Source: a phage. Taken from it: 64,000 bases of DNA. Position numbers and translations under genes: made by a program. Under the pieces are notes generated by a model. That model made no database searches and had not been told where the DNA came from. It worked only from the letters and a program-made list of their open reading frames with translations. Where the stretch lies: the NCBI GenBank assembly GCA_033648345.1, contig GCA_033648345.1_4121.1; one strand, written 5' to 3'. Of this stretch, positions 1-64,000 are shown in pieces. How positions within the stretch are numbered: the first letter of the stretch is position 1; each line of letters opens with the position of its first letter.

Positions 1-405
1 TCCGTCTTTCATTAATATAAATGCTGTATAACCACATAACATTTTTTTAATTTGGGTAACATCTATACCAGTGAAATACACAGCCCAGTCAGTATATCCT
101 TGTTGGAAAGTATTAGAATTCGTGAATGCATATGTTGAACCTGAACCATATATTTTATCACCTTTAATAACAACGGAAAACGATCCTAACCATAAGTCAT
201 CAACTTCAGTTGTGATTTGTTGAACTGCTCCTAACGATACAAACTGTGTACTTAAACCCGCATTATAGTTTGAATCTTCACCGTGTGCATATACAGTGCC
301 ATCTTGCATTAGAAACATTTCAAGAGTGTAACTAACAACACTTTTCTTTATATTATTAACTTCGATTATATTCCCATAATCAAACATTCTAACAAAAGGT
401 AACAT
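1..405 (-). CDS. RCC1-repeat (beta-propeller-like) protein, paralog 1, C-terminus outside window
   Basis: Open frame to window edge; N-terminus MLPFVRMFDYGN shared with the two downstream paralogs; AAGGAGG SD 5 nt upstream. Confidence 0.6.
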   Translation of the reverse strand, partial: MLPFVRMFDYGNIIEVNNIKKSVVSYTLEMFLMQDGTVYAHGEDSNYNAGLSTQFVSLGAVQQITTEVDDLWLGSFSVVIKGDKIYGSGSTYAFTNSNTFQQGYTDWAVYFTGIDVTQIKKMLCGYTAFILMKDG

Positions 406-477
406 AATTCCCTCCTTTATTCATTATACTTTATTTAATACAAATAAGAATTCCTGTATCGAGTACTGGCATTCAAT

Positions 478-1626
478 TTATTGTAAAAAGGACATATCTA
501 CTTCTGTATAACTAAGAATGTTTTGACCAGCAATTCCACCCATTACTACTATTGCATACCCACAATAATATAATTTCCCAGTGTCCGTAAGTATAAGTGA
601 ACCAGAAGGTGTTCTTACCAAATTACACGAACTATTAAAAGAAGTATACGAAGGAGTATAGGAGTACTGATTAATATTATTACCAACACCTAATTGACCA
701 CCCCTATTCGAACCAGATGCATAAAGTACTTCATCTGCTTTGACAATATGTGATGCCATGTTAGCAACACATGCATATACACCATATACCCCTGTACTCA
801 ATAATGTAGGAGTCTTGTATTGAATATCAGTACTAGTAGATGTTCCACCTGTGCCAAATTCATTACCATATTGTGCTCCGTACTGCTTCCCACATGCGTA
901 CAAATTATTATCCGATTTGATAAAAAATGTACTCTGATAACTTACATCAAAATCTATAACATCCGAAGAAATCATCGTTACCCCAGTAATCGAAGTTTGA
1001 TTACCAGTACCCAACTGGTAGTAATAGTTAAAACCACAACCCCATAAAGTATTATCTTCTCGCAAATAAATGTTACCAACAGCCTTTTTAACAGATGTTA
1101 TAGTACTGACCTTCTTGAATGTATTAAATGAATCAATGTTAGTACCATCTCCAAAGGAGGATATGTTCGATGCGTTATTAGCACCACAACAATATAATGT
1201 CCCATCCTTCAGTACTAAATTTACCTTCATATCATTAAAACTGCTCATGTACTCAATATCAGATACACTAATACCACCTGATGTTATCCACGTAGTACAG
1301 TCCGTCCATAACGTCTTCCTATCAGTTACCCCAGTAAATGCCTTCGTGTTACCAGTGATAAACACTTTACCAGTACCCTTTTCTTCATACAATTGACAAT
1401 CACTACTGTTATCTTCCAATAAAACCCTCTGTACATTCTCTGCACAAAGAATAAATTTACTCGATGCTACACCTGTTCCAGTACCCCAATTCGTCGCAGA
1501 AGATGCATACAACTTATGTGTTAGTGTATCATGCAAATACATAGAACCACTAGAATATATTTTAAAACGCCCTTCTTTCTCAGGTATAATATTCCCATAA
1601 TCAAACATTCTAACAAAAGGTAACAT
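478..1626 (-). CDS. RCC1-repeat protein, paralog 2
   Basis: Track ORF 478..1644 trimmed to internal Met (MNKGGN is the SD AAGGAGG); repeated G-x-x-GQLG-x-G motifs typical of RCC1 blades. Confidence 0.65.
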   Translation of the reverse strand: MLPFVRMFDYGNIIPEKEGRFKIYSSGSMYLHDTLTHKLYASSATNWGTGTGVASSKFILCAENVQRVLLEDNSSDCQLYEEKGTGKVFITGNTKAFTGVTDRKTLWTDCTTWITSGGISVSDIEYMSSFNDMKVNLVLKDGTLYCCGANNASNISSFGDGTNIDSFNTFKKVSTITSVKKAVGNIYLREDNTLWGCGFNYYYQLGTGNQTSITGVTMISSDVIDFDVSYQSTFFIKSDNNLYACGKQYGAQYGNEFGTGGTSTSTDIQYKTPTLLSTGVYGVYACVANMASHIVKADEVLYASGSNRGGQLGVGNNINQYSYTPSYTSFNSSCNLVRTPSGSLILTDTGKLYYCGYAIVVMGGIAGQNILSYTEVDMSFLQ

Positions 1627-1654
1627 ATTCCCTCCCTTATTCATTATACTATAT

Positions 1655-1690
1655 TTAATACAAATAAGAAAGCCAGTACAGAGTACTGGC
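1655..1690 (-). terminator. Rho-independent terminator (minus strand)
   Basis: Perfect hairpin GCCAGTAC-nnn-GTACTGGC at 1672-1690 followed on the minus strand by UUUCUUAUUUG, just downstream of the 1698..2864 stop. Confidence 0.5.
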
Positions 1691-1697
1691 CTATCAA

Positions 1698-2864
1698 TTA
1701 CGAAAAACGTGGATCATCAAGAACAAACACTGTACTACTTGGACCACCTTGTGTGGTGACAGCACTAGTACTGTAAAGAAAGTTACCATCCGTCATATAA
1801 GTTCTACGATTCGTACAAATAACTCTTACTTTATTCATATCGATATCAGGATTAGGTAATGGACATGAAGTATACACTGATACATCAGTACTTGTTCCTA
1901 TCCCCAGCGTACCTTCATTTGTGGTTGAACCGCTATTCAACCCACTAGCATATATACCACTGCTTGTAATAACAAAAGTGGCGTAGAATGGAGAACCTTC
2001 ACCTATATTTAATTTAGTTCCAGGTGGTTGTCTTGCCGCAGCAACCGCACCATATGCTTTCCCACCAGATGTGGCAAGATTACCAAGAGCACCATACTGT
2101 TGTTGTCCACCATTATACACTGTGTTAGTGCCATCACTGTTAGTGTGGATACCAATAGAATTATAGTTACTGTTGCTATATACTAACGCGGTATTCGAAG
2201 TAACTGTATTTCGTGTATATACTTTATATTGTTGGGTAAAATTACCACTAGTGGACGTACCCTGTACAGTTCCAGTGTAGTATATATATCCGTCTGTACC
2301 AATGAATGAGTGCATAACACTACCTGCAAAAATTTTTTCGGGAGTAACACCTGACGGTATTGTTGATTGTACAAATCTACCCACTACATTTGTTGTTGTA
2401 TTATTTCCCAATTGACCGGAGTCACCATAACCACTTGACCATATGGTATTGTTCTCAAGAAGAACACTAATTGATAATCTTGATAAAGCTATTTCTTTAA
2501 CATCACTTTCTAATGTATCAAAAAATGAAGTACAATTTGTCCAAGTGTTCACTACGCTAGAACTAACACCAATTTGTTTATTATCACCAGAACTATAATA
2601 ATTCCCATCATATGTTTGTATAAGTATAACAGAACTACCAACCCATACTTTATCAACTGAACCAAACGTTCTTGTCCATGTGGTAACTATATCCCCGCTA
2701 TTATTACCCAATCCAAAGCAACCACTACTATCTACACCTCGTACATATAAATCTCCTGAAGTCATCAGAACTGCACAGAATGATTGTGCACCTTTAACAT
2801 CTTTAATTGGCTCTGGTTCAGGTGCAACATTCCCATAATCAAACATTCTAACAAAAGGTAACAT
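1698..2864 (-). CDS. RCC1-repeat protein, paralog 3
   Basis: Track ORF 1698..2882 trimmed to Met after SD; SGYGDSGQLGNN and GGQQQYGALGN RCC1-like blades. Confidence 0.65.
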   Translation of the reverse strand: MLPFVRMFDYGNVAPEPEPIKDVKGAQSFCAVLMTSGDLYVRGVDSSGCFGLGNNSGDIVTTWTRTFGSVDKVWVGSSVILIQTYDGNYYSSGDNKQIGVSSSVVNTWTNCTSFFDTLESDVKEIALSRLSISVLLENNTIWSSGYGDSGQLGNNTTTNVVGRFVQSTIPSGVTPEKIFAGSVMHSFIGTDGYIYYTGTVQGTSTSGNFTQQYKVYTRNTVTSNTALVYSNSNYNSIGIHTNSDGTNTVYNGGQQQYGALGNLATSGGKAYGAVAAARQPPGTKLNIGEGSPFYATFVITSSGIYASGLNSGSTTNEGTLGIGTSTDVSVYTSCPLPNPDIDMNKVRVICTNRRTYMTDGNFLYSTSAVTTQGGPSSTVFVLDDPRFS

Positions 2865-2912
2865 ATTTCCTCCTTTATTCATTATATCATATTTACCCCA
2901 TAAACAAAACCC

Positions 2913-2941
2913 TTGACAACCTTCCAGTACTGATGTACTAT
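2913..2941 (+). promoter_or_regulatory. sigma70-type promoter driving the FamA array
   Basis: TTGACA-17-TACTAT in the divergent intergenic region. Confidence 0.5.
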
Positions 2942-2966
2942 AGAAGGAATATAAGGAGAACTACAC

Positions 2967-3194
2967 ATGACAAATACTCTTAAGTACTACCTCAATACTC
3001 TAAATGAACTAGAGTACGCGAAGTTTCTCGCGGATAGTTCGTGGCTAATTGAGCTAAAAACACATAACAGTACTGGATGTAACCTTATGCTGAACAATGC
3101 ACTTGATACCCTTGTAGTGAGTATTTTACACAGCACCATCTGCGGGGATAGCAATAAACAATTATCAAAAATCTTAGTACTGGTAGCTCTATGA
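2967..3194 (+). CDS. FamA-like small protein (divergent first member)
   Basis: 75 aa ORF with SD AAGGAG; LKYYLNTL N-terminus. Confidence 0.5.
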   Translation: MTNTLKYYLNTLNELEYAKFLADSSWLIELKTHNSTGCNLMLNNALDTLVVSILHSTICGDSNKQLSKILVLVAL

Positions 3195-3403
3195 ACACTA
3201 TGAACATTGAACAGTACTACATTGATGCACTACCAACAAAAGGTCTACGAGAAAGCCTACTGTATACACAAAATAATTATATAAACCTCAAACATTGTCC
3301 TAAACTCTTGAACTCGTACAGGAATAATAAAATAAGAAATGCTGTACAAGGGGTAGAAAGTATGCAATACTATTACATCCTAACCCTTTTAATCGAGCAC
3401 TAA
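3191..3403 (+). CDS. FamA small paralog
   Basis: ATGA overlap with upstream gene; EQYYID N-term motif. Confidence 0.6.
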   Translation: MNTMNIEQYYIDALPTKGLRESLLYTQNNYINLKHCPKLLNSYRNNKIRNAVQGVESMQYYYILTLLIEH

Positions 3404-3404
3404 T

Positions 3405-3590
3405 ATGTATAAAGAATTCTACTGTAGTAAGCTGCACAAACAATACAGAGATTCATTTCCCAATGAACCTATGGATATGAATAGTCCCTTTTATAAATTT
3501 GACTTCAGACTGGAGACACGTTATGCAATAGAACATCAATTTCCTGAAACTAAGTACTTATCTATCATGAACCTCATCTTTAAGTTCTAA
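3405..3590 (+). CDS. FamA small paralog
   Basis: MYKEFY N-term, LIFKF C-term; TAATATG junction. Confidence 0.6.
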   Translation: MYKEFYCSKLHKQYRDSFPNEPMDMNSPFYKFDFRLETRYAIEHQFPETKYLSIMNLIFKF

Positions 3591-3601
3591 AAGAGTACTA
3601 T

Positions 3602-3814
3602 ATGAAAACTATGAACATACACCAGTACTACTTAGATATTCTCCCTAAAGATGTACAGTTCATCCTTAAACAAGAATACAGTACTTTAAAAAACCTTAAA
3701 AGAACCGCACCGAATGTATTAATCCTGCACCAAGAAAATGTAGTTGATAATATTCTACAAGGTGTACCAGGGACCGAGTACTTTAACATAATAAGGCTAA
3801 TTACATTACCATGA
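3602..3814 (+). CDS. FamA small paralog
   Basis: Near-duplicate architecture of 3191..3403 (MxTMNIxQYY...LQGV). Confidence 0.6.
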   Translation: MKTMNIHQYYLDILPKDVQFILKQEYSTLKNLKRTAPNVLILHQENVVDNILQGVPGTEYFNIIRLITLP

Positions 3815-3996
3815 ATCATATATTATACTATTACCAAAATCTATCCGACAGGGACAAGTACACCCACAACTCCAATGTATGGTACTACAAACGCGGTAGT
3901 ATAAGAGACAAACAACATTACTTCTGTATTGCTATAAAAGAAGCACTAACAACTAAGTACACGTACAGAGCAGTACTGAAACTTATTGATATGTAA
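3811..3996 (+). CDS. FamA small paralog
   Basis: ATGA overlap; C-term VLKLIDM. Confidence 0.55.
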   Translation: MNHILYYYQNLSDRDKYTHNSNVWYYKRGSIRDKQHYFCIAIKEALTTKYTYRAVLKLIDM

Positions 3997-4006
3997 AGAG
4001 AATACT

Positions 4007-4192
4007 ATGAATACATTTGAGTACTATACAAATAAACTATCTATGCCAGAAAGATCTCATCTCTATGTGTGGAGAAATGCGTATAAAAGCGGCAATAAAC
4101 TTATACAAAGAAATTCCCTTACAGTGTGTACAAATTTAATTAAAGCAGAGTACCGCACATATATTGAAGTACTCAAACTGATAGCAATATAA
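4007..4192 (+). CDS. FamA small paralog
   Basis: Start moved to MNTFEYY after upstream stop; C-term VLKLIAI. Confidence 0.55.
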   Translation: MNTFEYYTNKLSMPERSHLYVWRNAYKSGNKLIQRNSLTVCTNLIKAEYRTYIEVLKLIAI

Positions 4193-4200
4193 GGTACTCT

Positions 4201-4380
4201 ATGCAAGAATTCTATATCTATAACCTCCAGCACAAAGATAGATACAACTATAATAAATTCCAAAGGTACTACACAGTCGGAAACAAAAGAGATAAAAAAC
4301 GATACTTTCTATCATGTACAGTAGAAGCACAAAACGAAAAGTACAGGTACAGAGAAGTACTTAAACTAATCTCTATGTAA
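4201..4380 (+). CDS. FamA small paralog (59 aa, absent from ORF track)
   Basis: MQEFYIYNL...VLKLISM by manual translation. Confidence 0.5.
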   Translation: MQEFYIYNLQHKDRYNYNKFQRYYTVGNKRDKKRYFLSCTVEAQNEKYRYREVLKLISM

Positions 4381-4388
4381 GGAATAAT

Positions 4389-4568
4389 ATGCAAGAATAC
4401 TATATAGAACACATAAACATTAAAGACCGTTTCATGTACGACACCTTCGTGAAGTACTACAACCTGGCAACTAACAGTACTAAAAATATTAATCTCAATA
4501 GCTGCATTCATCACGCACTAACAAAAGATAATCCCTTCAGGGAAATCCTCGCACTCGCATCTGTATAA
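4389..4568 (+). CDS. FamA small paralog (59 aa, absent from ORF track)
   Basis: MQEYYIEHI... by manual translation. Confidence 0.5.
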   Translation: MQEYYIEHINIKDRFMYDTFVKYYNLATNSTKNINLNSCIHHALTKDNPFREILALASV

Positions 4569-4578
4569 AGGAAACCAA

Positions 4579-5238
4579 ATGAAACTTAATGCACACAGCA
4601 AACAATACCTTAAGCACTTTAAGTACCTCAACAGTATTCAAGCAGAATCTTTTACACCAGCATATACGTATCACCCAAATGTACTAAAGAAACGAAATAA
4701 AAAGAAAAAATCCAGAAATGTTCTCGTATCTAAGAACCTCAAATCGTACTTGAAGAAAAATAATATAGCTCTTGCTTTTATTAATATCTATCATACTGAT
4801 TTAAAAGTATTGAGTACTAATACCAGCACAAAAGCACTAAAGAATGCATCTATCTATATACACATGGATAATATCCCGTGCACTATAATTCTATCTTTCG
4901 GGAATGTATACTTCTTCGGGAATTGTAATAGCACCCATGATATCAGTACTGCACAATTCCAAATCGGAGATATGTACTGCATGGGTTCAGAAAAAATACA
5001 CGATAACATGCACTTCTTCCAAAAGCAACGTACTAACGAAACTGATACAGTACTGCAATTCCTCAAAGAACTACAAAACAAAGAATTAACACCAGAAGAA
5101 GAATTCATGTACAGTACTGTAATCGATAATCCAGAACTCTATAAAAACGCGTACAAACTAACAAAACATGTACAGGAACTTATCAGTACTGATAAGAAAT
5201 TTCATAACCTCATTACGTATATTACAAACTATGTATAA
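4579..5238 (+). CDS. 219-aa protein with FamC-like motif inside the FamA array
   Basis: Contains LTPEEEFMYSTVID, resembling the FamC EE-x-F-FQ-x-S-T-V motif. Confidence 0.55.
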   Translation: MKLNAHSKQYLKHFKYLNSIQAESFTPAYTYHPNVLKKRNKKKKSRNVLVSKNLKSYLKKNNIALAFINIYHTDLKVLSTNTSTKALKNASIYIHMDNIPCTIILSFGNVYFFGNCNSTHDISTAQFQIGDMYCMGSEKIHDNMHFFQKQRTNETDTVLQFLKELQNKELTPEEEFMYSTVIDNPELYKNAYKLTKHVQELISTDKKFHNLITYITNYV

Positions 5239-5413
5239 AGAATACTACAAAGATAAAATCCCAATGCATCTACAACACCATATACCAAACGTTGCATTGG
5301 GTATCAAAGATCACGCAAAGATAATGTTCCAACAATGTACTAAGTACACGCTCATATACGATGATAATCCATATATGCTGTACTACGTAGTAATGCTAAC
5401 ATTCAGGTACTAA
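5231..5413 (+). CDS. FamA small paralog
   Basis: Start moved to MYKEYY; C-term MLTFRY. Confidence 0.6.
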   Translation: MYKEYYKDKIPMHLQHHIPNVALGIKDHAKIMFQQCTKYTLIYDDNPYMLYYVVMLTFRY

Positions 5414-5415
5414 TA

Positions 5416-5613
5416 ATGAATATAAAAGAATACTACGTAAGTAAACTTGCAATTAATTACCAAATGCTTATTCCCCGCAATCCTGTAGATTTCAAAGATA
5501 AGAGCAAAACAATATACTACCGCCAGCATATAATGCATACAATAGAAGAAGATGATTATGATGATGATATGTATAACCTGTACAAAGTACTAACACTTAT
5601 ATTCAGGTACTAA
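5416..5613 (+). CDS. FamA small paralog
   Basis: MNIKEYY...LTLIFRY. Confidence 0.65.
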   Translation: MNIKEYYVSKLAINYQMLIPRNPVDFKDKSKTIYYRQHIMHTIEEDDYDDDMYNLYKVLTLIFRY

Positions 5614-5614
5614 T

Positions 5615-5800
5615 ATGTATAAAGAATACTACATAGAGAAACTCCCAATGTATCTCCAACACCTTGTACCAACAGAACCATTGGGTATAGAAAAAGACTA
5701 CGAAAAAGACTACTTCGTTAAGTGCACTAAATCCTCAATAGATATTGAGGACTATAATCGAGTACTGTATCACATCCTTTTACTAATATATAAGTACTAA
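5615..5800 (+). CDS. FamA small paralog
   Basis: MYKEYY...LLLIYKY. Confidence 0.65.
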   Translation: MYKEYYIEKLPMYLQHLVPTEPLGIEKDYEKDYFVKCTKSSIDIEDYNRVLYHILLLIYKY

Positions 5801-5801
5801 T

Positions 5802-5990
5802 ATGAATAACCACAAAGAATACTACACACAATTTCTCCCCAGCATTTTTGAACACTACGCCAGATATAAAGTCCCCCTGGATAACGATTTGGCAGTACTG
5901 GGATTCAATAACTGCATAGAACGAAGTATAGAAAATAGTAGTACTTATGACCAATTATATAACATCATACTACTCATATACAGGTACTAA
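5802..5990 (+). CDS. FamA small paralog
   Basis: MNNHKEYY...FNNCIERS...ILLIYRY. Confidence 0.65.
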   Translation: MNNHKEYYTQFLPSIFEHYARYKVPLDNDLAVLGFNNCIERSIENSSTYDQLYNIILLIYRY

Positions 5991-5991
5991 T

Positions 5992-6180
5992 ATGCATAAA
6001 GAATACTACACAAAATATTTCCCAATGTACCTCAGTACTAATCTATTAGATAAACCTCGCGGTATCAATGCTCAAAACGATAAAGTGTACTTTACTATGT
6101 GCACTAAAGCATGTATACTAGATTTTGATAGCTATCATCGAGTACTGTATCATACCCTGTACCTAGCTTTCGTGTACTAA
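5992..6180 (+). CDS. FamA small paralog
   Basis: Start moved to MHKEYY; C-term YLAFVY. Confidence 0.6.
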   Translation: MHKEYYTKYFPMYLSTNLLDKPRGINAQNDKVYFTMCTKACILDFDSYHRVLYHTLYLAFVY

Positions 6181-6190
6181 AGAGGCCAAT

Positions 6191-6397
6191 ATGAACGAAC
6201 AGAAAGAATTCTACACCAAATACCTCAGTGCATCAGAACAAATGTTTCTAAGGAGTGTATCACCTTTACGTTTAGATACACCACACGCCAGAGATTGTTT
6301 TAATAATTGTATACGTATTACTCTAGAAGCTTTAGAAAACAATAACAAAAATATTCAGTACTCAGGCGTAATGGGACTAATATTCTTCTATGAATAA
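6191..6397 (+). CDS. FamA small paralog
   Basis: MNEQKEFY...FNNCIRIT...LIFFYE. Confidence 0.65.
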   Translation: MNEQKEFYTKYLSASEQMFLRSVSPLRLDTPHARDCFNNCIRITLEALENNNKNIQYSGVMGLIFFYE

Positions 6398-6578
6398 CAA
6401 AGAATTCTACATAAACCATCTGGAACTAAACTCCCAAATGCTTATACCACTAAACCCAATAGATATCAAGGATAAGAAAAATACCAAACAATTCCACTAC
6501 CACACACTATGTGCTATCAACCCTGATTATAATACATATAAACTGTACTACATTCTCGCCCTAATATATAGGTACTGA
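6390..6578 (+). CDS. FamA small paralog
   Basis: MNNKEFY...LALIYRY. Confidence 0.65.
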   Translation: MNNKEFYINHLELNSQMLIPLNPIDIKDKKNTKQFHYHTLCAINPDYNTYKLYYILALIYRY

Positions 6579-6579
6579 T

Positions 6580-6765
6580 ATGCATAGAGAATACTATATA
6601 CAATTTGTTAAAGGGAACTACAAACACGCCGTCCCCGTAAACCCCTTAAATTCTAATGACCCAAGTACTATATTCTTGTTCCATGACGCAATACGTACAG
6701 TACTCAATACTAAAGATGAACAGGTGCAGTACGTATTCTTACTATTACTTATATACAGACACTAA
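6580..6765 (+). CDS. FamA small paralog
   Basis: MHREYY...LLLIYRH. Confidence 0.65.
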   Translation: MHREYYIQFVKGNYKHAVPVNPLNSNDPSTIFLFHDAIRTVLNTKDEQVQYVFLLLLIYRH

Positions 6766-6782
6766 AGCACTAAGGTACTAAC

Positions 6783-6986
6783 ATGTATAAAGACTTCTAC
6801 ATAAATCATCTTAGTCCCGCAAAACAATCATTCTATAAAGCAAAACCAATGAAAATGAAATTACAAAATAATTTCACAAAAATATGCTATAATAACTGTA
6901 TACGTAGTACTATACAAGCACTGCAAGAAAATGACAACAATAAACTATACTCCAACATAATGGCACTCCTATATATCTATGAATAA
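6783..6986 (+). CDS. FamA small paralog
   Basis: MYKDFY...YNNCIRST...LLYIYE. Confidence 0.65.
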   Translation: MYKDFYINHLSPAKQSFYKAKPMKMKLQNNFTKICYNNCIRSTIQALQENDNNKLYSNIMALLYIYE

Positions 6987-7369: not shown

Positions 7370-7370
7370 T

Positions 7371-56435: not shown

Positions 56436-56462
56436 CGCTTTTAACAGAGTACAGGAGAAGAT

Positions 56463-57026: not shown

Positions 57027-57610
57027 TGCAAGCTGAACACATTCAAATTATGAAATTGATGCATGACATTGCAGAACTATCTGAAAAGCACAACATTACT
57101 GAACATGAGCCTATTGGAAATTATCGTCTTAAAGTTGAATGCAAATCACCATATCGTTTTGGTTCAGTAGTACTGGAGTCTTATAAAGTTTACGATTATG
57201 GAACGACGAAAAAAGGTTCATGGGATACTATGGCAATGTATATCCGAACATCAAGGCATAGTGAGCAAATCGGTTCCATTACTCCAAACATGATATTTGT
57301 CAATGCTTTACACGAAGATATTAATCGAATTGTTGAATCTAATTTTGATGACGTAGAGAATGATACATATTTGGAAATTCCACCAGAACTAGATCAATGT
57401 GAAGACATTCGCGAAGGATACATTTTTCAGAGATCAGTACTTGACAACTTCAAGGAATTTGAGTACATGATGCTTTGCTATGAAACTGCAAAAGCTATTG
57501 ACACTGGTGAATTGGTAATGTATAGTAAGTTCATTAACTGTGAATCCGATACATTAAAAGAGCTACACACGGCAATCAAAAACATCAAGGATACATATGA
57601 ACGCTTATAG
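57026..57610 (+). CDS. FamC paralog (long form)
   Basis: REGYIFQRSVLDNF. Confidence 0.65.
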   Translation: MQAEHIQIMKLMHDIAELSEKHNITEHEPIGNYRLKVECKSPYRFGSVVLESYKVYDYGTTKKGSWDTMAMYIRTSRHSEQIGSITPNMIFVNALHEDINRIVESNFDDVENDTYLEIPPELDQCEDIREGYIFQRSVLDNFKEFEYMMLCYETAKAIDTGELVMYSKFINCESDTLKELHTAIKNIKDTYERL

Positions 57611-58175
57611 TTATATGACAGCCCGACACCAACAGCTATATGATATCAGTACAAAAATGTTATCAATTGTTAGTAGTGCAAAAGAAATTGAAAAACAATA
57701 CCTCATCCGTGATGTAGCAATTTCATCTAAATGTTGGTCCAATGAATATTACGATCACGGTATTCTTACTATTTCTGGGGCTAGAAATATTTGTATTGTA
57801 AAAAATAAAAATAAAAGTAATGAAGAGTGTGAGATTAGAACCGATATACAAATTAAGGATGATGGAAGTTTTTCACACCACCCATTCCATATTAGTACTA
57901 TTGGTGTTTTATATAATATTAAAGTACTATTCGGTGATGAAGAGTATGTGTTAAAAGCTATCAATCCAGATTCAAGTACAGTTGAAGAAGAACTGTTCCA
58001 GATGAGCACTGTTATACCTGAAGAGGTTCTTAGTACTGTTATTTTTTGTAGTTTAATTTATCACACATACAAAAAGTACCAGTTCGATTTCCACATTTTA
58101 GGAACGTACATCTTCAATACTTTGAATGTTGATCGTTTAAAAGCATTAAATGCAGCAATGGATAAGGTGCTATAA
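57597..58175 (+). CDS. FamC paralog (long form)
   Basis: VEEELFQMSTVIPEE. Confidence 0.65.
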   Translation: MNAYSYMTARHQQLYDISTKMLSIVSSAKEIEKQYLIRDVAISSKCWSNEYYDHGILTISGARNICIVKNKNKSNEECEIRTDIQIKDDGSFSHHPFHISTIGVLYNIKVLFGDEEYVLKAINPDSSTVEEELFQMSTVIPEEVLSTVIFCSLIYHTYKKYQFDFHILGTYIFNTLNVDRLKALNAAMDKVL

Positions 58176-58603
58176 TGACAAGAGATGAATGCTTATACAT
58201 ATGGGATATAATTGAAACTACACTTTCAAATCCAGAAAATTATAAAACAAAAAAAAGACAACGACACAAAATATGGATAGATTTGTTCGTTGAGGGCATA
58301 CACGCAGTGACTATTTGGGATTCACCGAGGGCATCATCATCTACTCTGTTGGACAATGAATGCATTGATTGCATTAATTCCACTTTTCATCTCCACGGTA
58401 CTACATATTTCGGCACATTTCTGGATATTGAAAGTAAAGATGATATTGATTCACTTGCTTTACAATACGGAGTACTGTATGATACTAAATTAATTTACGA
58501 TTTAGTACTAGCTTCTTATGTGTATAAATTAATGATGAAATATAATCATATTTCAGTTTCAGTTTATACTAAGGATATTCTTTCATTAAGAGACAAAACA
58601 TGA
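58175..58603 (+). CDS. FamC-like protein (degenerate motif)
   Basis: SLALQYGVLYD in motif position. Confidence 0.5.
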   Translation: MTRDECLYIWDIIETTLSNPENYKTKKRQRHKIWIDLFVEGIHAVTIWDSPRASSSTLLDNECIDCINSTFHLHGTTYFGTFLDIESKDDIDSLALQYGVLYDTKLIYDLVLASYVYKLMMKYNHISVSVYTKDILSLRDKT

Positions 58604-59106
58604 GTTTATTAAATGCACGAGAATTAGTTGAGATGTATGAGATCTTATCTTCATATAAAAATTCTCCAAAAGATGTAATTCTCAACAAAAAGTTCCATGT
58701 CAATGTTGATCATATGAAAAATATAGATATGATTTCTTTAGTGGAAAGTCGTAAATCGGGTCTTGAGCGTGATATCATGCGTTTGATTTATATTACCAAA
58801 CCATCATATACTAATGATAGTTCAATTAGTAATGAGACGTTTTTGTACACTCCTTATACTGATTGTACTTTAGTTTCAATGTCTAATCAGAAACAAGATA
58901 CTATCCAATTCATCAATACCAGTACTGATAACATTGAAGAAAATGAATTCCAAAACAATACATTAAGTTCATGTAGTAGTGTTATAACCTTTATGTCATA
59001 TCTGTGGTCAATCAAATCAAATGCAATTGTATATAGTTCTAATTACACACAAGATAGTATTGTTGAATCATTTAAAGTTCTAAAGGAATACTATGAAAAT
59101 AACTAA
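58600..59106 (+). CDS. FamC paralog (long form)
   Basis: IEENEFQNNTLSS. Confidence 0.6.
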   Translation: MSLLNARELVEMYEILSSYKNSPKDVILNKKFHVNVDHMKNIDMISLVESRKSGLERDIMRLIYITKPSYTNDSSISNETFLYTPYTDCTLVSMSNQKQDTIQFINTSTDNIEENEFQNNTLSSCSSVITFMSYLWSIKSNAIVYSSNYTQDSIVESFKVLKEYYENN

Positions 59107-59674
59107 TGATTTTATTAGAAGCTTAGTGCACCCTATGCTTGGTGTTATGAAAAAACTACAGACTCTACCTGAAGACAACGATTACAAGTTTAATCGTTTT
59201 GATTCGGATGTGTTTTGTATTGAAATGGAAATTAATAACAATCGTTATTTTCATTTAAAATTCAAAGAATCGTCGAGTTCGCACTACAACTTTGACATGA
59301 ATTTTAAAATAAGCAATGATATTGAAGAAAACGCAATATCAAATCATATTAGCAGAAATGGTTTCATGCATAGAACTAATATGTTCAATAATAAAAACAG
59401 TATTATATCTAAATGGAATCATCAATTCACTAAAATTTGTGATATTGATTGCAGTACATTTGGTGAAGAACAATACTTTCAGTTAAGTACAATACATGAA
59501 CTTCCACCATATGATTGTGTAAAAACATGGTTTGATATTCATAATATAATTGATGATGCAATCGTACTTCCATTTGGGTTGTCAATATCATATACTGCAC
59601 CTAAAACGTTTGTTTTTACTGAAGATATGATTATGAAAAAGATATGGGCGATGATCCCACTTATGCTTGATTAA
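59093..59674 (+). CDS. FamC paralog (long form)
   Basis: GEEQYFQLSTIHEL. Confidence 0.65.
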   Translation: MKITNDFIRSLVHPMLGVMKKLQTLPEDNDYKFNRFDSDVFCIEMEINNNRYFHLKFKESSSSHYNFDMNFKISNDIEENAISNHISRNGFMHRTNMFNNKNSIISKWNHQFTKICDIDCSTFGEEQYFQLSTIHELPPYDCVKTWFDIHNIIDDAIVLPFGLSISYTAPKTFVFTEDMIMKKIWAMIPLMLD

Positions 59675-59685
59675 CGGAGAACTAC

Positions 59686-60237
59686 ATGAATCAAAGTCAT
59701 GATCTTTTTAAATTATGTGCATCCAAAGATGTGGAAGGATGGGCAGATAAAATCAATACAATTATTAACCGTTATCTTGGCTTCTGTGCACGATCACGAA
59801 GTGAAGGTTCAATGCGTTTCCAAATAACCATGACAATCGATGGTGTTACGATTTATGTCAACGAAGAACGTCTTGGTATTAATCTCTATGATAGTTGTGT
59901 CTTTGCTATTCACCAGAAAATGGGGGCAGGTTGGGGTTGTAATAATATGAACACCAATGCATTTTTCTGGGTAGGTCATAGCAACACAGTACTTGATCCT
60001 TCAAAGAAATCAAACCTTTTAGATGATAATTTGGTATATGATTTAGCTTACTCTGAAGAACAACATTTCCAGTTAAGTACATTGCATAATTTAGTCAAAT
60101 ATGAAGATTGTATCAAAGCATTAGAATTATGCCATTCACTTGAACTTAAAGAAAAATTGATACAAATTTACCCATTGTTCTTCCATGAAGAAGTACAATG
60201 CACACTAGATCATATTTTATATGGGTACGACAAATGA
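59686..60237 (+). CDS. FamC paralog (long form)
   Basis: SEEQHFQLSTLHNL. Confidence 0.65.
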   Translation: MNQSHDLFKLCASKDVEGWADKINTIINRYLGFCARSRSEGSMRFQITMTIDGVTIYVNEERLGINLYDSCVFAIHQKMGAGWGCNNMNTNAFFWVGHSNTVLDPSKKSNLLDDNLVYDLAYSEEQHFQLSTLHNLVKYEDCIKALELCHSLELKEKLIQIYPLFFHEEVQCTLDHILYGYDK

Positions 60238-60836
60238 GAAAAAGTTATCAAGAAGCTATTGACCTAATTCGAGAAGTTATTAAGGCGGCTCCAGGTGCGA
60301 TAGCATTCAAGAAGTCCCTATATAAAAAGTATGGTCCCATGTCAAGTATGTGCTGTCAAAAGAAACGTAGTAAATTTACTACGCAGTACTGGCATGATTC
60401 TATTATCCTGAGTAATGAACATCAGCGTATTTTAACAATCGAATCAGTAGATAATCAATATGGTGAAGGAATGATTTGTGTTCCTGACTATGATGAAATT
60501 AATTTCAATTGTGGAGATTATGAGACAACATTATTATTACACGAGGGTTACCCTGAAGGTGATGTAATGGCAGAGTATAATCCAAAAACCAAAATACTGA
60601 AACGTGGTATGCAGTTCAAAATCAATAACAAAGATGATGTGGAAGCAGCACTAATGCAACTTAGTACTAGTGAACCTATCACTATTGATGTAGAAGAGTT
60701 ATGGGGCATCATTTCAGTACTTAATGAGTGTTATAAAATTAAATCATTACATAAGTACTCTATCATTTTACATACTAATTGTGCAATGATAAAATGCAAG
60801 AACATACAAGAGATGGTGGTTCCAGATGAACTTTAA
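60234..60836 (+). CDS. FamC paralog (long form, divergent motif)
   Basis: VEAALMQLSTSEP; start moved to MRKSYQ. Confidence 0.55.
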   Translation: MRKSYQEAIDLIREVIKAAPGAIAFKKSLYKKYGPMSSMCCQKKRSKFTTQYWHDSIILSNEHQRILTIESVDNQYGEGMICVPDYDEINFNCGDYETTLLLHEGYPEGDVMAEYNPKTKILKRGMQFKINNKDDVEAALMQLSTSEPITIDVEELWGIISVLNECYKIKSLHKYSIILHTNCAMIKCKNIQEMVVPDEL

Positions 60837-61410
60837 AGAAATAGAAAGTAAAATTAAGTACTTCAAAGATATTAAAAAACTTTGGGAAAAGTATAAAATT
60901 GATTATCAGTTCCAAGATGATGATACTGTTCAAAGCATTGATATTAATATTCGTGTGAAGTTTAAGAATGGCAATTATGGCGAAGTTAAATTGAATGCTA
61001 TTGGTGTATTCCTTAAGGATTATGATGGTTCTTCACTCGCTCAATTCGATTTCACACCTGATCCTGATGATATGTTATTGAGTGAAGTCAATGCATATGA
61101 CCTTGAGATGTTTAATGGTAAACCTTTACTATTCCGCTTATCAGATGAATGGGATGAGGTTTACTACACATACAAAGATGGTGTGATTCGAGACGTAAAT
61201 GATGAAGTAGTAAATGATATGGAAGAACGTCTATTTCAAGAATCATGTGTGTCATCGGAGTCATATACATATCAATATCTACTTGACATGTTCGATTTGT
61301 ATAGTAAAATAGATTCAGAAATGAGTACATTGGGTATTCATTATCTTACAATCAACGACTTTGCACAACTTGAAACAGCGGTTAAAGCACTGGTCAAAGT
61401 ACTGAAATAG
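60826..61410 (+). CDS. FamC paralog (long form)
   Basis: MEERLFQESCVSSE. Confidence 0.65.
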   Translation: MNFKEIESKIKYFKDIKKLWEKYKIDYQFQDDDTVQSIDINIRVKFKNGNYGEVKLNAIGVFLKDYDGSSLAQFDFTPDPDDMLLSEVNAYDLEMFNGKPLLFRLSDEWDEVYYTYKDGVIRDVNDEVVNDMEERLFQESCVSSESYTYQYLLDMFDLYSKIDSEMSTLGIHYLTINDFAQLETAVKALVKVLK

Positions 61411-61419
61411 GAATGAATA

Positions 61420-61833
61420 ATGAAACTGTATCATGCGAGTACTGTAAAAATTGATAACTTTTATATCCCGTATGGTGGCCTTCATATGGGAGGTAAACAC
61501 AGTGCTTTAGAAGCTGCATTACGCAAACTGAGAAGCCCACTAAACGTCGTTGACGCTGATACAGTATACTTGCATACCTTAGAAGTTGATGTTGATAACG
61601 TGCTTCTATGGACGGATATGGGCAGTGATGATGAATGGCGTGGAGTGATTGAGTACTGCGAAATTAACGGCTATGATGCAGTTCAGTACCAAAACGATTA
61701 CGAACCAGATACAGTTCCTAGCTATATGATTTGGGATACGTCTAAGGTTCGCATTATTGAAGTTGATGCGATGCATATGGATGAAGCTGAAATGATCATC
61801 GAAGATTTCCTTGATGAATATGAAGGTGTATAA
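61420..61833 (+). CDS. Hypothetical protein (137 aa), no family motif
   Basis: Track ORF; locally higher GC than neighbours. Confidence 0.55.
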   Translation: MKLYHASTVKIDNFYIPYGGLHMGGKHSALEAALRKLRSPLNVVDADTVYLHTLEVDVDNVLLWTDMGSDDEWRGVIEYCEINGYDAVQYQNDYEPDTVPSYMIWDTSKVRIIEVDAMHMDEAEMIIEDFLDEYEGV

Positions 61834-62351
61834 TGATTGAACCTATGACAGTACTAGCACGTACTAAATTATTATTGAAGATTGGTGAGATATTCACTGA
61901 TATTTTGTACAGTGGGATTGATATACATGAATTAGGCATTAAGCAACCGTGGGAAATAACCAAGTTCTCTGCGTTCTATCGTTTATCATATAAAGGGGAA
62001 ACGGTTCTGGACTGGAACCCCAAAGCCAAATTCATGGAATATGCGGCGTTATATGGAAGCAATGGTGGTATAACAAATAATTTTAAAGAAATTAAAGTCC
62101 TAATTGGGTCAAAGGAATTTAATGATCTACTATATCCAGAATTTAAGTTAACAGAAGAATTAATATTTCAGTACTCTTTGATTTTAAAAGATCTTAATGA
62201 TTTAGAGTACTACAAAGAGTTAGTAGATATTTTTATTAATACTCGACTTTCAAAAGATATTGTGATATTCTGGTATGTTGAGTATGTTACAGAGGAATTG
62301 CTTGAAGAATTTCTTCTAAATATGACAGCAATCAAGGAGAAGTTATGTTAG
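61833..62351 (+). CDS. FamC paralog (long form)
   Basis: TEELIFQYSLILKD. Confidence 0.65.
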   Translation: MIEPMTVLARTKLLLKIGEIFTDILYSGIDIHELGIKQPWEITKFSAFYRLSYKGETVLDWNPKAKFMEYAALYGSNGGITNNFKEIKVLIGSKEFNDLLYPEFKLTEELIFQYSLILKDLNDLEYYKELVDIFINTRLSKDIVIFWYVEYVTEELLEEFLLNMTAIKEKLC

Positions 62352-62818
62352 ACATTTTAGGAAACATCGATACAGCAAATTATTTTATTCAAGATGCACT
62401 GTTCAATACAGTACAGAAAGGGTTGGATGTACGATGTAATATCCATCAGGGAGATGGGTATTTTGTTGATATCACAGAAACACGCAAGAACGTGTTCAAT
62501 TTAAACATTACCACATTAGCACGTCAGAACATTGCACGCATTCTGGTTAATAAAGATGAAATAGTTCTTCGTTATAATTCCAAATTCTTATTCACATACA
62601 AGAAGAAGACTGACATGTTCAGTACTAATTTGTTTGATGAACCCTTCAATCTGGAAGACTTAGAAGCAACTTTCTTTACACAGAACACTATGCTGAAATT
62701 CAATGATGTTGAATTTTCATCAGAAGTAATGTCTGAAACACTACAAATGGTTAAGGTAGTATTCTATGCTTTTCAACAGTTTAACGAAGAACGAAACAAG
62801 GTTAACAACAACAGATGA
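62345..62818 (+). CDS. FamC paralog (divergent motif)
   Basis: LEATFFTQNTMLKF. Confidence 0.55.
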   Translation: MLDILGNIDTANYFIQDALFNTVQKGLDVRCNIHQGDGYFVDITETRKNVFNLNITTLARQNIARILVNKDEIVLRYNSKFLFTYKKKTDMFSTNLFDEPFNLEDLEATFFTQNTMLKFNDVEFSSEVMSETLQMVKVVFYAFQQFNEERNKVNNNR

Positions 62819-63179
62819 ACTAATCGCGGCGATGGGAGCCAATGAGAAATACTTCAATGGGATTCATTTTTTTAAAACAGATCTTAGTGAAAGTAAAGTA
62901 CTATATGTGTATGGTTCCCAGTACTGCATTGTCACAAAGCACCCAGATTCGATTTCACTAAAATTTAACACTTATTCAAAAAACTTCTTGACGATTAATA
63001 AAAGCAATGTTACTATGTCTGGTATAGGGAATCAGGTTGTTGAGATTCCTTTGGACTCAATTGATTCTATTGAGTTCTTTCAATACGAGTGCTTAGGTGT
63101 TGATTTTGGTACTGTCAGTACTGAATCTATGCGAACATTAATTAATTTACTTAAAGGTAAAGTTCATGCTTTTAACTAA
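62766..63179 (+). CDS. FamC paralog
   Basis: DSIEFFQYECLGVD; start uncertain (52-nt overlap with upstream gene). Confidence 0.5.
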   Translation: MLFNSLTKNETRLTTTDELIAAMGANEKYFNGIHFFKTDLSESKVLYVYGSQYCIVTKHPDSISLKFNTYSKNFLTINKSNVTMSGIGNQVVEIPLDSIDSIEFFQYECLGVDFGTVSTESMRTLINLLKGKVHAFN

Positions 63180-63666
63180 TTCGATGAAGAATTCATTTAA
63201 AATTATCAAAGAAATACTAAATGGGTCTAAAACTTCTAGTGGGTCTTCCTTTACTAGTGACCAGATCCAACACAGTACAAAGGATTGTACTGTAATCTTT
63301 GGGTTACATAGTCTGCGTTTGACAATAGTAAATAATATTGATAACACAGCAATTGTAATCACCCCATGTCATATTCAGAATGAAACAGGTGCATACTTAC
63401 ACCACATGGGGACTGTATTCTACATCTTCAATACTGAAGAAAACATTGTTAAAGAATACAACACACTCAATGTTGATGCAGGTGAGTTATTCCAATTGAG
63501 TACTGTCAATGATTGTAACTTCAGTGACAATGCAGAAGTACTTCCATTGTTTCTAAGTCTTCTCAATAACATGGAAAAACTAACCATTGCATACAACAAA
63601 AGTGACGTACCGCAAGCAGTATTGAATATCACCGAAGCAATGGAGAAATACAAAGCTGTGACCTAA
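63166..63666 (+). CDS. FamC paralog
   Basis: DAGELFQLSTVNDCN. Confidence 0.65.
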   Translation: MLLTNSMKNSFKIIKEILNGSKTSSGSSFTSDQIQHSTKDCTVIFGLHSLRLTIVNNIDNTAIVITPCHIQNETGAYLHHMGTVFYIFNTEENIVKEYNTLNVDAGELFQLSTVNDCNFSDNAEVLPLFLSLLNNMEKLTIAYNKSDVPQAVLNITEAMEKYKAVT

Positions 63667-63708
63667 TATATGTGCACATGGAGTGCCTTTGAAGATCAAG
63701 GATAGATC

Positions 63709-64000
63709 ATGGAGATTAAAACTGTTGAGAATGGAAAGATAGATGACATTTTAGAGTTGGACGCATTCAAAGTTCATGATATAATGTTCAATGTAAAGGA
63801 CATAATTCAGTGCTTGTTTTTATGCAGTAAAACTATGCACGACTTCTTTCACAATCCAAATACTAATGTTTTCATACTAACAATCAGTACTAGCAATTCG
63901 TTTATCATGGGTATGCCTATGAGTACAAATGACGAGTACATTGATTGTGTTATTCGTAACAATGATAATATTACCCCACAATCTGAAGTACGTAAGAAAA
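63709..64000 (+). CDS. Hypothetical protein, 3' end outside window
   Basis: Open frame from ATG 63709 to window edge by manual translation. Confidence 0.45.
   Translation, partial: MEIKTVENGKIDDILELDAFKVHDIMFNVKDIIQCLFLCSKTMHDFFHNPNTNVFILTISTSNSFIMGMPMSTNDEYIDCVIRNNDNITPQSEVRKK

What the first reader, a model, noticed from the sequence alone, without database searches (positions are those of the whole stretch)
1..64000. Heavy over-representation of the palindrome AGTACT / CAGTACTG throughout the window
In the 1.8-kb non-coding stretch 8161-9960 I counted about 18 AGTACT sites, far above what a 6-mer should give in AT-rich DNA (I did not compute an exact expectation). The same density is visible by eye in coding regions of all three arrays and in the early block. 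It occurs in all reading frames, in promoter spacers (AGTACTG just before the -10) and immediately upstream of class-I -35 elements. Phages usually deplete palindromes, so enrichment suggests a function: a DNA-binding protein site, a modification or packaging motif, or a transcription signal.
Basis: seen in the sequence. Interest (0 to 1): 0.75.

Follow-up and report, generated by a model that had tools for sequence, protein, structure and literature searches.

The report
Hyper-abundant AGTACT palindrome in jumbo phage
A giant E. coli virus has written the six-letter palindrome AGTACT into its DNA about 15 times more often than chance allows, whereas its host and two other coliphages sampled have no excess, and two adjacent gene blocks use a one-letter, one-directional variant instead, which points to an unidentified DNA-reading system.

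Summary
The over-representation is real. AGTACT occurs 286 times in 64 kb against about 20 expected. CAGTACTG occurs 64 times against fewer than 1. The excess survives synonymous-codon, codon-order and Markov nulls. The window comes from an Asteriusvirus (121Q/PBECO4-like jumbo coliphage) and spans the 21-kb direct terminal repeat (DTR).

The motif covers the whole 354-kb genome of a close relative. It lies in all reading frames and on both gene strands, and takes about half of all synonymous opportunities. It is the top palindrome in every RaK2-like locus sampled with capsid identity of at least 80%, is weaker (~3×) at 65–72%, and shows no enrichment in the other, more distant relatives, E. 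coli, T2 or phage Paula.

"Throughout the window" is wrong. Two blocks, 29,604–35,626 and 37,335–45,101, have no AGTACT. They carry CAGTACAG instead, each in one strict orientation. The orientations mirror each other about ~36 kb, where GC and AT skew both shift. Related Salmonella and Klebsiella phages show the same layout.

Best reading: a selection-maintained DNA recognition signal with a bidirectional form (the palindrome) and a unidirectional form, read by an unidentified phage-clade protein and linked to replication direction. It is also embedded in 80% of early promoters. The closest analogue is cyanobacterial HIP1. The mechanism is unproven.

The parts
1..64000 (.). Carpet of AGTACT sites: 286 copies, 64 of them CAGTACTG. 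Extended consensus TTCAGTACTGAA. Flanks are the same on both strands.
1..8316 (.). Unique right-end region of the genome, lying before the right terminal repeat in the packaged DNA. 54 AGTACT sites (6.5 per kb).
8161..9960 (.). It holds 18 AGTACT sites, many in the long palindromic form (A)TTCAGTACTGAA(T). The left physical end of the genome maps to 8317.
8317..29726 (+). Direct terminal repeat, the early block. 139 AGTACT sites (expected 6). 28 of 35 sigma70-like promoters carry the motif at one of two fixed positions, -27 or -7/-8 from the start of the -10 hexamer.
   Evidence: DTR length of 20,993 bp comes from PMC13070987.
29604..35626 (-). Island 1. No AGTACT. The one-base variant is present as TGTACT on the + strand (CAGTACA on the - strand): 11 copies against 2.0 expected, with only 1 AGTACA.
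35627..37334 (.). Middle segment between the islands. 12 AGTACT plus 7 AGTACA. After masking the motif, GC skew and AT skew both have their best change point here (36,317).
37335..45101 (+). Island 2. No AGTACT and no GTACT. 39 AGTACA against 2.2 expected, consensus ttCAGTACAg, in all frames and in intergenic DNA.
45102..64000 (+). Tightly packed arrays of paralogous genes. 81 AGTACT sites (4.4 per kb, all frames), plus a residual + strand excess of AGTACA (41 against 11 TGTACT).

Best explanation
AGTACT (full form TTCAGTACTGAA) is a DNA-level recognition signal. Selection keeps it at about one copy per 220-360 bp across the whole genome of the enterobacterial RaK2-like jumbo phages. It is read on double-stranded or unwound DNA by a still unidentified protein specific to this phage clade. 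It is not read as codons, RNA or a gene-expression signal.

The signal has two forms. The palindrome CAGTACTG contains the unit CAGTAC on both strands and works in both directions. CAGTACAG carries the unit on one strand only.

The one-directional form replaces the palindrome completely in two operon-sized blocks just after the terminal repeat. Their orientations mirror each other around window position ~36 kb, where strand composition also switches. In both blocks the unit lies on what would be the lagging-strand template of forks leaving that point.

The candidates are the phage's own primase-helicase (GT start plus flanking bases), a helicase-nuclease (Chi-like attenuation), or a dimeric protein that acts directionally on half-sites. 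On this reading the carpet marks phage DNA, which is about 75 times denser in sites than host DNA. The copies inside early promoters may also act as operators.

What is shown: the enrichment, its DNA-level nature, its clade specificity, the polar islands, and the coincidence with the skew change.
For: Enrichment beyond every null model.

Genome-wide carpet in the relative fEgEco12: 1115 sites against 126 expected. Sites are uniform along genes, across gene-length classes and on both gene strands, and dip only at ribosome-binding sites and stop codons.

DNA-level pressure on coding sequence. 54% of Ser-Thr dipeptides are written AGT-ACT, against 16% expected. In the other two frames 39% and 47% of opportunities are used, against 7-9% expected. 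The dipeptides ST, VL and QY are enriched 1.3-1.4x while the reversed TS and LV are not.

Flanks are strand-symmetric even though about 90% of genes lie on one strand.

Specificity is for the exact hexamer. It is enriched 7.9-8.8x, while every one-base variant is at most 2.4x. Variants that keep one AGTAC unit (1.77x) exceed variants that destroy both units (1.28-1.37x). Eight-mers with a single CAGTAC unit are enriched 2-6x.

Individual sites turn over between genera while density is kept, and conservation is modestly above background.

The trait follows the phage clade, not the host. It is 3-8x in every capsid-gene locus with at least 80% identity, including the contigs whose lengths match 121Q, GAP32, fHe-Yen9-04 and RaK2. 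It is about 3x in three loci at 65-72% identity and about 1x in the remaining more distant relatives. E. coli has 3 sites in 50 kb, T2 has 3 in 41 kb and Paula has 0 in 32 kb.

The polar islands. In the window they hold 0 AGTACT, with AGTACA 39 to 0 in island 2 and TGTACT 11 to 1 in island 1. In fEgEco12 they are the only AGTACT gaps longer than 2 kb in 354 kb. They are retained in Salmonella phage SD-15_S21, where AGTACA conservation is 63% against 40% background. Klebsiella phage fENko-Kae01 shows the same zones in the same order, in miniature.

Skew. With the motif masked, the GC-skew and AT-skew change points both fall at 36,317. In fENko-Kae01 GC skew jumps at about 22 kb, where the motif polarity flips.

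The phage encodes its own primase next to a DnaB-like helicase.
Against: No reader protein was identified. Pfam scans of 70 proteins from the terminal repeat, the middle segment and the right end found no DNA-binding domain.

Outside the islands the palindrome is favoured more than two independent units would predict. The 8-mer is enriched 34.5x, while single-unit forms are 2-6x against a predicted ~5.9x. The hexamer is 7.9x, while single-unit forms are 1.8x against a predicted 2.8x. This favours a reader with true two-fold symmetry.

The fixed positions in 80% of early promoters look like classical operators, although paralogous promoter modules could also explain them.

No origin-like repeats were seen in 35.3-38.1 kb.

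The skew change points have modest t values (3.6-3.7). Gene content also changes at that point, so composition could shift for reasons unrelated to replication.

From memory, not tested here: known primases read only about 3 nucleotides, and no case of 10-fold primase-site enrichment is known.
Confidence: 0.4

Rival explanations
1. The motif is an operator and self-mark for a homodimeric DNA-binding protein. A phage-encoded dimer binds the 12-14 bp palindrome ATTCAGTACTGAAT. At early promoters it overlaps the -35 element or the spacer and shuts off early transcription. The roughly 1000 sites inside genes coat or organise phage DNA as a nucleoid-like structure, or protect it. There is no link to replication. 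The islands are operons that must escape binding.
For: Dyad-symmetric flanks extend to +-6-7 bp, and long perfect forms cluster in the leader of the terminal repeat.

28 of 35 early promoters carry the motif at -27 or -7/-8 from the -10 hexamer.

The palindrome is enriched more than the product of two single units.

The excess of site pairs 20-24 bp apart, about two helical turns, fits cooperative binding.
Against: Escape from binding would not require every island site to keep the same single change (T to A) in one fixed orientation. Nor would it predict selective retention of those sites.

About 1000 uniformly spread sites inside genes is unlike any known repressor regulon.

No helix-turn-helix or similar protein was found among 70 early-region proteins.
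Confidence: 0.28
2. A HIP1-style origin. AGTACT is the target of a phage-encoded sequence-specific modification or nicking enzyme. Sites are created and maintained by biased repair or gene conversion linked to that enzyme, or by selection for a high density of modified sites.
For: The sharp specificity for the exact hexamer is typical of Type II restriction-modification enzymes.

About half of all synonymous opportunities are taken, and sites turn over between genera.

The phage encodes a C5 and a Dam-family methyltransferase.

HIP1 in cyanobacteria is a precedent (PMC4390886, PMC5861425).

Phage Paula avoids AGTACT entirely (0 against 9.2 expected) and T2 is below expectation (3 against 7.9). 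This fits AGTACT being a real restriction target in E. coli, so this phage's DNA is probably protected at the site in some way.
Against: The deamination and near-miss products (AGTATT and others) are not depleted. They stand at 1.2-1.7x.

The RaK2 paper reports, as data not shown, CpG methylation by bisulfite sequencing and digestion only by methylation-tolerant restriction enzymes, which fits CpG and Dam methylation rather than AGTACT (PMC3622015).

Homologues of the C5 enzyme sit in about 70 unrelated phage contigs with no AGTACT enrichment.

Sites are conserved above background.

A repair drive does not explain the polar islands.
Confidence: 0.1
3. The motif is a host-factor site. AGTACT is the core of the E. 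coli SlmA (nucleoid occlusion) binding site GTGAGTACTCAC. On this view the phage accumulates it to hijack or titrate a host DNA-binding protein.
For: The central six bases of the SlmA site are AGTACT (PMC3020112). All cultured members of the enriched clade seen here infect Enterobacterales.
Against: SlmA needs G at position 1 and a purine at position 3 of its site. The phage flanks are T and C. G next to the core is two-fold depleted. GAGTACTC occurs 0 times in the window. No AGTACT site matches the SlmA pattern even with one mismatch allowed.
Confidence: 0.03
4. The excess is an artefact or by-product of base composition, codon usage, or copies of a repeated element or paralogous genes.
For: An order-4 Markov model predicts 239 sites, but it does so by absorbing the motif's own pentamers. 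The promoter modules in the terminal repeat are paralogous.
Against: Synonymous-codon and codon-order shuffles give 53 and 22 sites against 182 observed. Sites lie in all frames, in unrelated genes including structural genes, and across genera with position turnover. The host and two other coliphages of similar or known composition lack the excess.
Confidence: 0.01

Closest known systems
HIP1 (GCGATCGC), the highly iterated palindrome of cyanobacteria
   Same: Both are short palindromes, hugely over-represented genome-wide, found within and between genes in all frames. In both, sites are conserved above neutral expectation, the motif can differ between lineages, and the function is unresolved (PMC5861425, PMC4390886).
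   Different: This motif is in a virulent phage, not a cell, and is AT-rich. No cognate methyltransferase is evident. It is embedded at fixed positions in early promoters. It has two islands where a one-orientation variant replaces the palindrome. Large-scale periodicity was not tested.
Polar chromosome signals such as Chi (GCTGGTGG) and KOPS (GGGNAGGG)
   Same: Both are over-represented oligomers read by DNA-tracking enzymes, with an orientation tied to replication direction. In the islands the unit CAGTAC is strictly oriented, and it flips where the skew flips. True Chi is itself enriched in the terminal repeat.
   Different: Over most of the genome the signal is a palindrome and so has no polarity. 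The enrichment is stronger and the unit shorter.
Repressor operators in phage early promoters, and TF1 sites in the SPO1 terminal redundancy
   Same: A dyad-symmetric 12-14 bp site overlaps the -35 element or the spacer of early sigma70 promoters inside a long terminal repeat. The SPO1 comparison is from memory.
   Different: About 1000 copies are spread evenly through coding DNA. No cognate protein is known.
Primase recognition sites (T4 gp61 GTT/GCT, T7 gp4 GTC with flanking preference)
   Same: The motif contains GT followed by bases that would not be copied. In the islands the unit lies on the inferred lagging-strand template. The phage has its own primase and helicase. The known specificities are from memory.
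   Different: Known sites are about 3-5 nucleotides and are not strongly enriched in their genomes. There is no biochemical evidence here.
ScaI / Eco255I restriction site (AGT^ACT)
   Same: The hexamer is identical (from memory). Phage Paula avoids it strongly and T2 is below expectation, as expected for a restriction target.
   Different: This phage enriches the site 9-15-fold instead of avoiding it.

Membership tests
Highly iterated palindrome (HIP1-like) | Short palindrome over-represented at least ~15-fold genome-wide | tested here: met
   CAGTACTG occurs 64 times against 0.6-0.8 expected in the window. It is enriched 34.5x over 294 kb of fEgEco12. The hexamer is enriched 8.8-14.7x.
Highly iterated palindrome (HIP1-like) | Occurs within and between ORFs, in all frames, independent of the peptide encoded | tested here: met
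   Frame counts are 65, 46 and 71. Intergenic density is 7-10 per kb. The codon analysis supports this.
Highly iterated palindrome (HIP1-like) | Sites conserved more than neutral sequence | tested here: met
   93.5% of sites are intact against 84.6% of all hexamers in a ~96%-identical relative. Across genera the figures are ~0.22 against ~0.15. The effect is modest.
Highly iterated palindrome (HIP1-like) | A cognate methyltransferase recognising the motif or its core | tested here: inconclusive
   Only a C5 enzyme and a Dam-family enzyme were found. The C5 enzyme is reported to act on CpG in RaK2. C5 homologues occur in contigs without the motif. Methylation at AGTACT was not measured.
Polar architecture-imparting sequence (Chi/KOPS type) | Strand-specific motif whose orientation follows replication direction | tested here: inconclusive
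   Not met genome-wide, where the motif is a palindrome. Met locally: the islands are 39:0 and 1:11, and the orientation flips at the skew change point 36,317.
Polar architecture-imparting sequence (Chi/KOPS type) | Read by an identified translocase or nuclease | not testable with these tools
   Needs biochemistry.
Operator of a dimeric transcription repressor | Dyad-symmetric site overlapping core promoter elements | tested here: met
   The consensus is TTCAGTACTGAA. 28 of 35 early promoters carry it.
Operator of a dimeric transcription repressor | Sites restricted to regulated promoters, with a cognate binding protein encoded | tested here: not met
   About 1000 sites are spread uniformly in coding DNA. 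No DNA-binding domain was found in 70 early-region proteins.
SlmA-binding sequence | G at position 1, T at 2, purine at 3, flanking the AGY core | tested here: not met
   The requirement is from PMC3020112. No site matches with one mismatch or fewer. GAGTACTC occurs 0 times.
Primase recognition site | Lies on the lagging-strand template; primers start opposite the motif | not testable with these tools
   Only indirect support: the orientation in the islands relative to the inferred start point, and the presence of a primase and helicase.
Restriction-avoidance target | Site depleted in phage genomes | tested here: not met
   The site is enriched 9-15x here. It is below expectation in T2 (3 against 7.9) and absent from Paula (0 against 9.2).

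The most novel reading that the evidence does not exclude
The RaK2-like jumbo phages carry a private 'self-DNA code'. A phage enzyme that tracks along DNA (the primase-helicase or a helicase-nuclease) has an unusually long 6-8 nt specificity, and the genome has been rewritten to supply that sequence every few hundred bases. Replication or protection then becomes selective for phage DNA over host DNA without any base modification. The two one-orientation islands mark a fixed replication start next to the terminal repeat.
Probability: 0.22. Interest if true: 0.9.

Novelty: new variant of a known kind. Interest (0 to 1): 0.8.

Why it matters
Phages normally purge short palindromes to escape restriction. 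Here a whole clade of about 350-kb phages does the opposite, strongly enough to reshape codon and amino-acid usage.

This implies a sequence-specific system acting on the entire genome that has not been described. Full-text searches found no mention of it.

The polar islands give a concrete experimental handle.

The result would offer a model for how unmodified phage DNA is told apart from host DNA. It would also provide a tractable counterpart to the unsolved HIP1 problem.

In practice, the motif identifies RaK2-like sequences in metagenomes. It also flags ScaI and RsaI digests, or methylation-aware sequencing, as quick tests.

Tried and rejected
- Composition or codon artefact. Rejected by synonymous-codon, codon-order and Markov nulls.
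- Host mutational bias. Rejected. E. coli, T2 and Paula lack or avoid the site.
- SlmA sites. Rejected on flank requirements.
- LexA boxes. Considered, because the TACTG/CAGTA half-sites resemble them. The 18-bp spacing a LexA box would need is not enriched.
Unlikely.
- A gene-level signal such as a promoter or terminator inside genes. Rejected by the flat profile along genes.
- An ancestral AGTACA motif in outgroup phages. Rejected. It is only 1.3x there, which is ordinary sense-strand bias.
- Islands as recently acquired foreign DNA. Not supported. They are conserved across Asteriusvirus and mirrored in another genus, and they carry the variant motif at full density.
- Function of island genes. 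PHROGs and Pfam return only families of unknown function.
- Origin-like repeats in 35.3-38.1 kb. None found.
- Promoter and terminator scan of the island borders. Uninformative.
- Literature on the motif. Nothing found.
- Restriction digests with ScaI or RsaI in published asteriusvirus papers. None found.
- PDB match for the primase. None.

Full report
**Identity of the window.** The window is 95-97% identical to Asteriusvirus genomes, the 121Q/PBECO4-like jumbo coliphages of about 350 kb. I fetched the complete genome of fEgEco12, whose termini are experimentally verified and whose direct terminal repeat (DTR) is 20,993 bp (PMC13070987), as loci L001-L008. Aligning it to the window puts the left physical end of the genome at window position 8317 and the DTR at about 8317-29,726. 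Window 1-8316 is the unique right-end region.

- AGTACT occurs 286 times and CAGTACTG 64 times, with exactly 18 AGTACT in 8161-9960.
- Expectations for AGTACT are 21.4, 19.5 and 50 under Markov orders 0, 1 and 2. It is the most over-represented of all 4096 hexamers, at 14.7x. Meanwhile 25 of the 64 palindromic hexamers are absent, which is the usual phage avoidance.
- Orders 3 and 4 predict 119 and 239, but only because they absorb the motif's own tetramers and pentamers.
Within genes, 182 sites are observed against 52.8+-5.8 after shuffling synonymous codons and 21.5+-4.7 after shuffling codon order. Between genes, 102 are observed against 5.8, 15 and 38.7 in Markov simulations of order 1, 2 and 3.
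- All three frames are used, with 65, 46 and 71 sites.

**Genome-wide and DNA-level.**
- In fEgEco12 there are 1115 sites against 126 expected. Density is 2-3 per kb everywhere, structural genes included, and 6-8 per kb in the DTRs.
- Along genes the distribution is flat, with dips only at the ribosome-binding site and just before stop codons. Density is the same in all gene-length classes and on both gene strands.
- 54% of all Ser-Thr dipeptides are written AGT-ACT, against 16% expected. In the other two frames 39% and 47% of opportunities are used, against 7-9% expected.
- The dipeptides ST, VL and QY are 1.3-1.4-fold enriched, while the reversed TS and LV are not. The pressure has therefore changed protein sequences.
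- Flanks are mirror-symmetric, with C before and G after the core at 45% each and G before the core depleted, even though about 90% of genes lie on one strand. This argues for reading at the DNA level, not the RNA level.
- The extended consensus is TTCAGTACTGAA. The DTR leader holds forms up to ATTCAGTACTGAAT.
- Specificity is sharp. The exact hexamer is enriched 7.9-8.8x and every one-base variant at most 2.4x.

**Who has it.**
- I retrieved 80 capsid-gene loci from IMG/VR and analysed those of at least 12 kb. In every locus with capsid identity of 80% or more, AGTACT is the top palindrome at 3-8x. These include the contigs whose lengths match 121Q, GAP32, fHe-Yen9-04 and RaK2.
- Enrichment is about 3x in three loci at 65-72% identity. 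It is about 1x in the remaining environmental relatives at 64-69%.
- E. coli MG1655 has 3 sites in 50 kb and T2 has 3 in 41 kb.
- Coliphage Paula has 0 in 32 kb against 9.2 expected, which is active avoidance.
- The trait therefore belongs to the enterobacterial RaK2-like clade, not to the host. Phage DNA is about 75 times denser in sites than host DNA.

**Selection.**
- Against a roughly 96%-identical relative, 93.5% of sites are intact compared with 84.6% of all hexamers.
- Across genera, most site positions differ: 89 of 146 alignment columns are private to one genome. Density is nevertheless maintained, and conservation is about 1.4 times background.
- This pattern means selection on number or density with turnover of individual sites, as described for HIP1 (PMC5861425).

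**Early promoters.** The DTR carries about 55 small genes. Of 35 sigma70-like promoters detected upstream of DTR genes, 28 have AGTACT at one of two fixed places:
- ending on the first T of a TTGCAx -35 element (offset -27 from the start of the -10 hexamer, 14 exact cases);
- in the spacer, immediately upstream of the -10 element (offset -7 or -8, 16 cases).

These are classical operator positions. The promoter modules are also paralogous copies, which could explain the fixed placement on its own.

**The unexpected part: two polar islands.**
- The window has two stretches with no AGTACT: 29,604-35,626, which begins at the DTR boundary, and 37,335-45,101.
- In fEgEco12 these are the only gaps longer than 2 kb in 354 kb (8.6 and 5.8 kb, against a mean gap of 362 bp).
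- They are not motif-free. Island 2 has 39 AGTACA against 2.2 expected, no TGTACT and no GTACT at all, with consensus ttCAGTACAg, in all frames and in intergenic DNA.
- Island 1 has 11 TGTACT against 2.0 expected and 1 AGTACA. This is the same variant on the opposite strand.
- So the palindrome CAGTACTG is replaced by CAGTACAG, which keeps the unit CAGTAC on one strand only. The other orientation is avoided, and the two islands mirror each other about the 35.6-37.4 kb segment.
- Salmonella phage SD-15_S21 shows the same pattern. Island 2 there is only 79% identical, yet 22 of 35 AGTACA sites are intact, against 40% for all hexamers, and none has become AGTACT.
- Klebsiella phage fENko-Kae01 belongs to a different genus and has a mapped DTR. 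It shows the same zones in the same order in miniature: a TGTACT zone at 20-22 kb, then an AGTACA zone at 22-26 kb.
- Outgroup phages have no AGTACA motif. It stands at 1.3x there.

**Link to strand asymmetry.**
- After masking every NGTACN hexamer, the best change point of both GC skew (0.080 to 0.161) and AT skew (0.123 to 0.046) in the window is at 36,317, between the islands. All genes on both sides are on the + strand.
- In fENko-Kae01, GC skew jumps from 0.015 to 0.19-0.27 at 22 kb, where the motif polarity flips.
- The direction of the shift is what is expected if the + strand changes from lagging to leading. That is what a fixed bidirectional replication start would produce.
- On that reading the unit lies on the lagging-strand template in both islands.
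- The phage has its own primase (phrog_47) next to a DnaB-like helicase.
- Caveats: the t values are modest (3.6-3.7), gene families change at the same place, and no origin-like repeats were found.

**Unit or dimer?**
- Outside the first 60 kb, variants that keep one AGTAC unit are enriched 1.77x, against 1.28-1.37x for variants that destroy both units. Eight-mers with a single CAGTAC unit are enriched 2-6x.
- The double-unit CAGTACTG is enriched 34.5x. That is about three times more than two independent units would give.
- Single units therefore have some value on their own, but the palindrome is favoured beyond that. The data do not separate a strand-tracking reader from a dimeric reader that acts directionally on half-sites.

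**What it is not.**
- SlmA. Its site GTGAGTACTCAC shares the core but needs G at position 1 and a purine at position 3 (PMC3020112). No phage site fits.
- The C5 methyltransferase. It has homologues in about 70 unrelated contigs without the motif. The RaK2 paper reports, as data not shown, CpG methylation by bisulfite sequencing (PMC3622015).
- The other methyltransferase. It belongs to the Dam family.
- Near-miss products. They are not depleted, which argues against a very-short-patch type of repair drive.

**Verdict.** The over-representation is real, strong, clade-wide and maintained by selection at the DNA level. The claim that it runs throughout the window is wrong in an informative way. 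The best-supported reading is a recognition signal with a bidirectional and a unidirectional form, read by an unidentified phage-clade protein and tied to replication direction (confidence about 0.4). A dimeric operator or self-marking protein is the main rival (about 0.28). A HIP1-like enzyme-linked origin is a weaker one (about 0.1). I found no prior description of the motif in the searchable literature.

Noticed in passing
window 8893-28371 (DTR): The E. coli Chi sequence GCTGGTGG occurs 12 times against 0.6 expected. All copies are inside the terminal repeat and 10 are on the + strand. The DTR of Klebsiella phage fENko-Kae01 shows the same (12 on +, 2 on -). This suggests protection from RecBCD entering at the right genome end.
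   Followed up: partly
window 8317-29726 versus the rest: The terminal repeat does not avoid GATC (87 against 57 expected), CCWGG (69) or GGCC (36 against 35). The rest of the window depletes them: GATC at 0.3-0.5x, CCWGG at 0-7 per region. fENko-Kae01 has no CCWGG in 50 kb.
   Followed up: no
window 8131-8404 and 9080-9240: The non-coding DTR leader has ATGTAATCA-type repeats on both sides of the physical genome end (8317). It also has an array with an 8-bp period (GGCTNNNN). Either could be a packaging or end-recognition element.
   Followed up: no
window 10000-29600, intergenic: Most early genes have a conserved GC-rich stem-loop (GGGGAGAAnnGTTCTCCCC type) between the -10 element and the ribosome-binding site.
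   Followed up: no
L107, L147, L034 (IMG/VR contigs): Unrelated viral contigs carry their own ~7-10-fold enriched palindromes: ACCGGT 18 against 2.1, CTGCAG 20 against 2.0, ACCGGT 12 against 1.7. Hyper-abundant palindromes may be a wider phage phenomenon.
   Followed up: no
L173 (Escherichia phage Paula, 1-32043): AGTACT is completely absent (0 against 9.2 expected). This fits AGTACT being a genuine restriction target among E. coli hosts.
   Followed up: partly
window 37401-45020 versus L089: Island 2 is far more diverged between E. coli and Salmonella asteriusviruses (79% identity) than its flanks (91-95%).
   Followed up: partly
window 8000-14000: Megablast finds similar DNA in 162 phage records. 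These include Phapecoctavirus, Justusliebigvirus and records labelled Campylobacter or Acinetobacter phage. Which segment is shared was not determined.
   Followed up: no
window 478-2864 (- strand): My gene calls place two ~385-aa genes on the - strand here; fEgEco12 aligns at 85% over 368-1674 to g595, one of 16 minus-strand genes at its right end, most annotated 'chromosome condensation regulator' or 'DNA condensation protein'. Their function is unknown.
   Followed up: no
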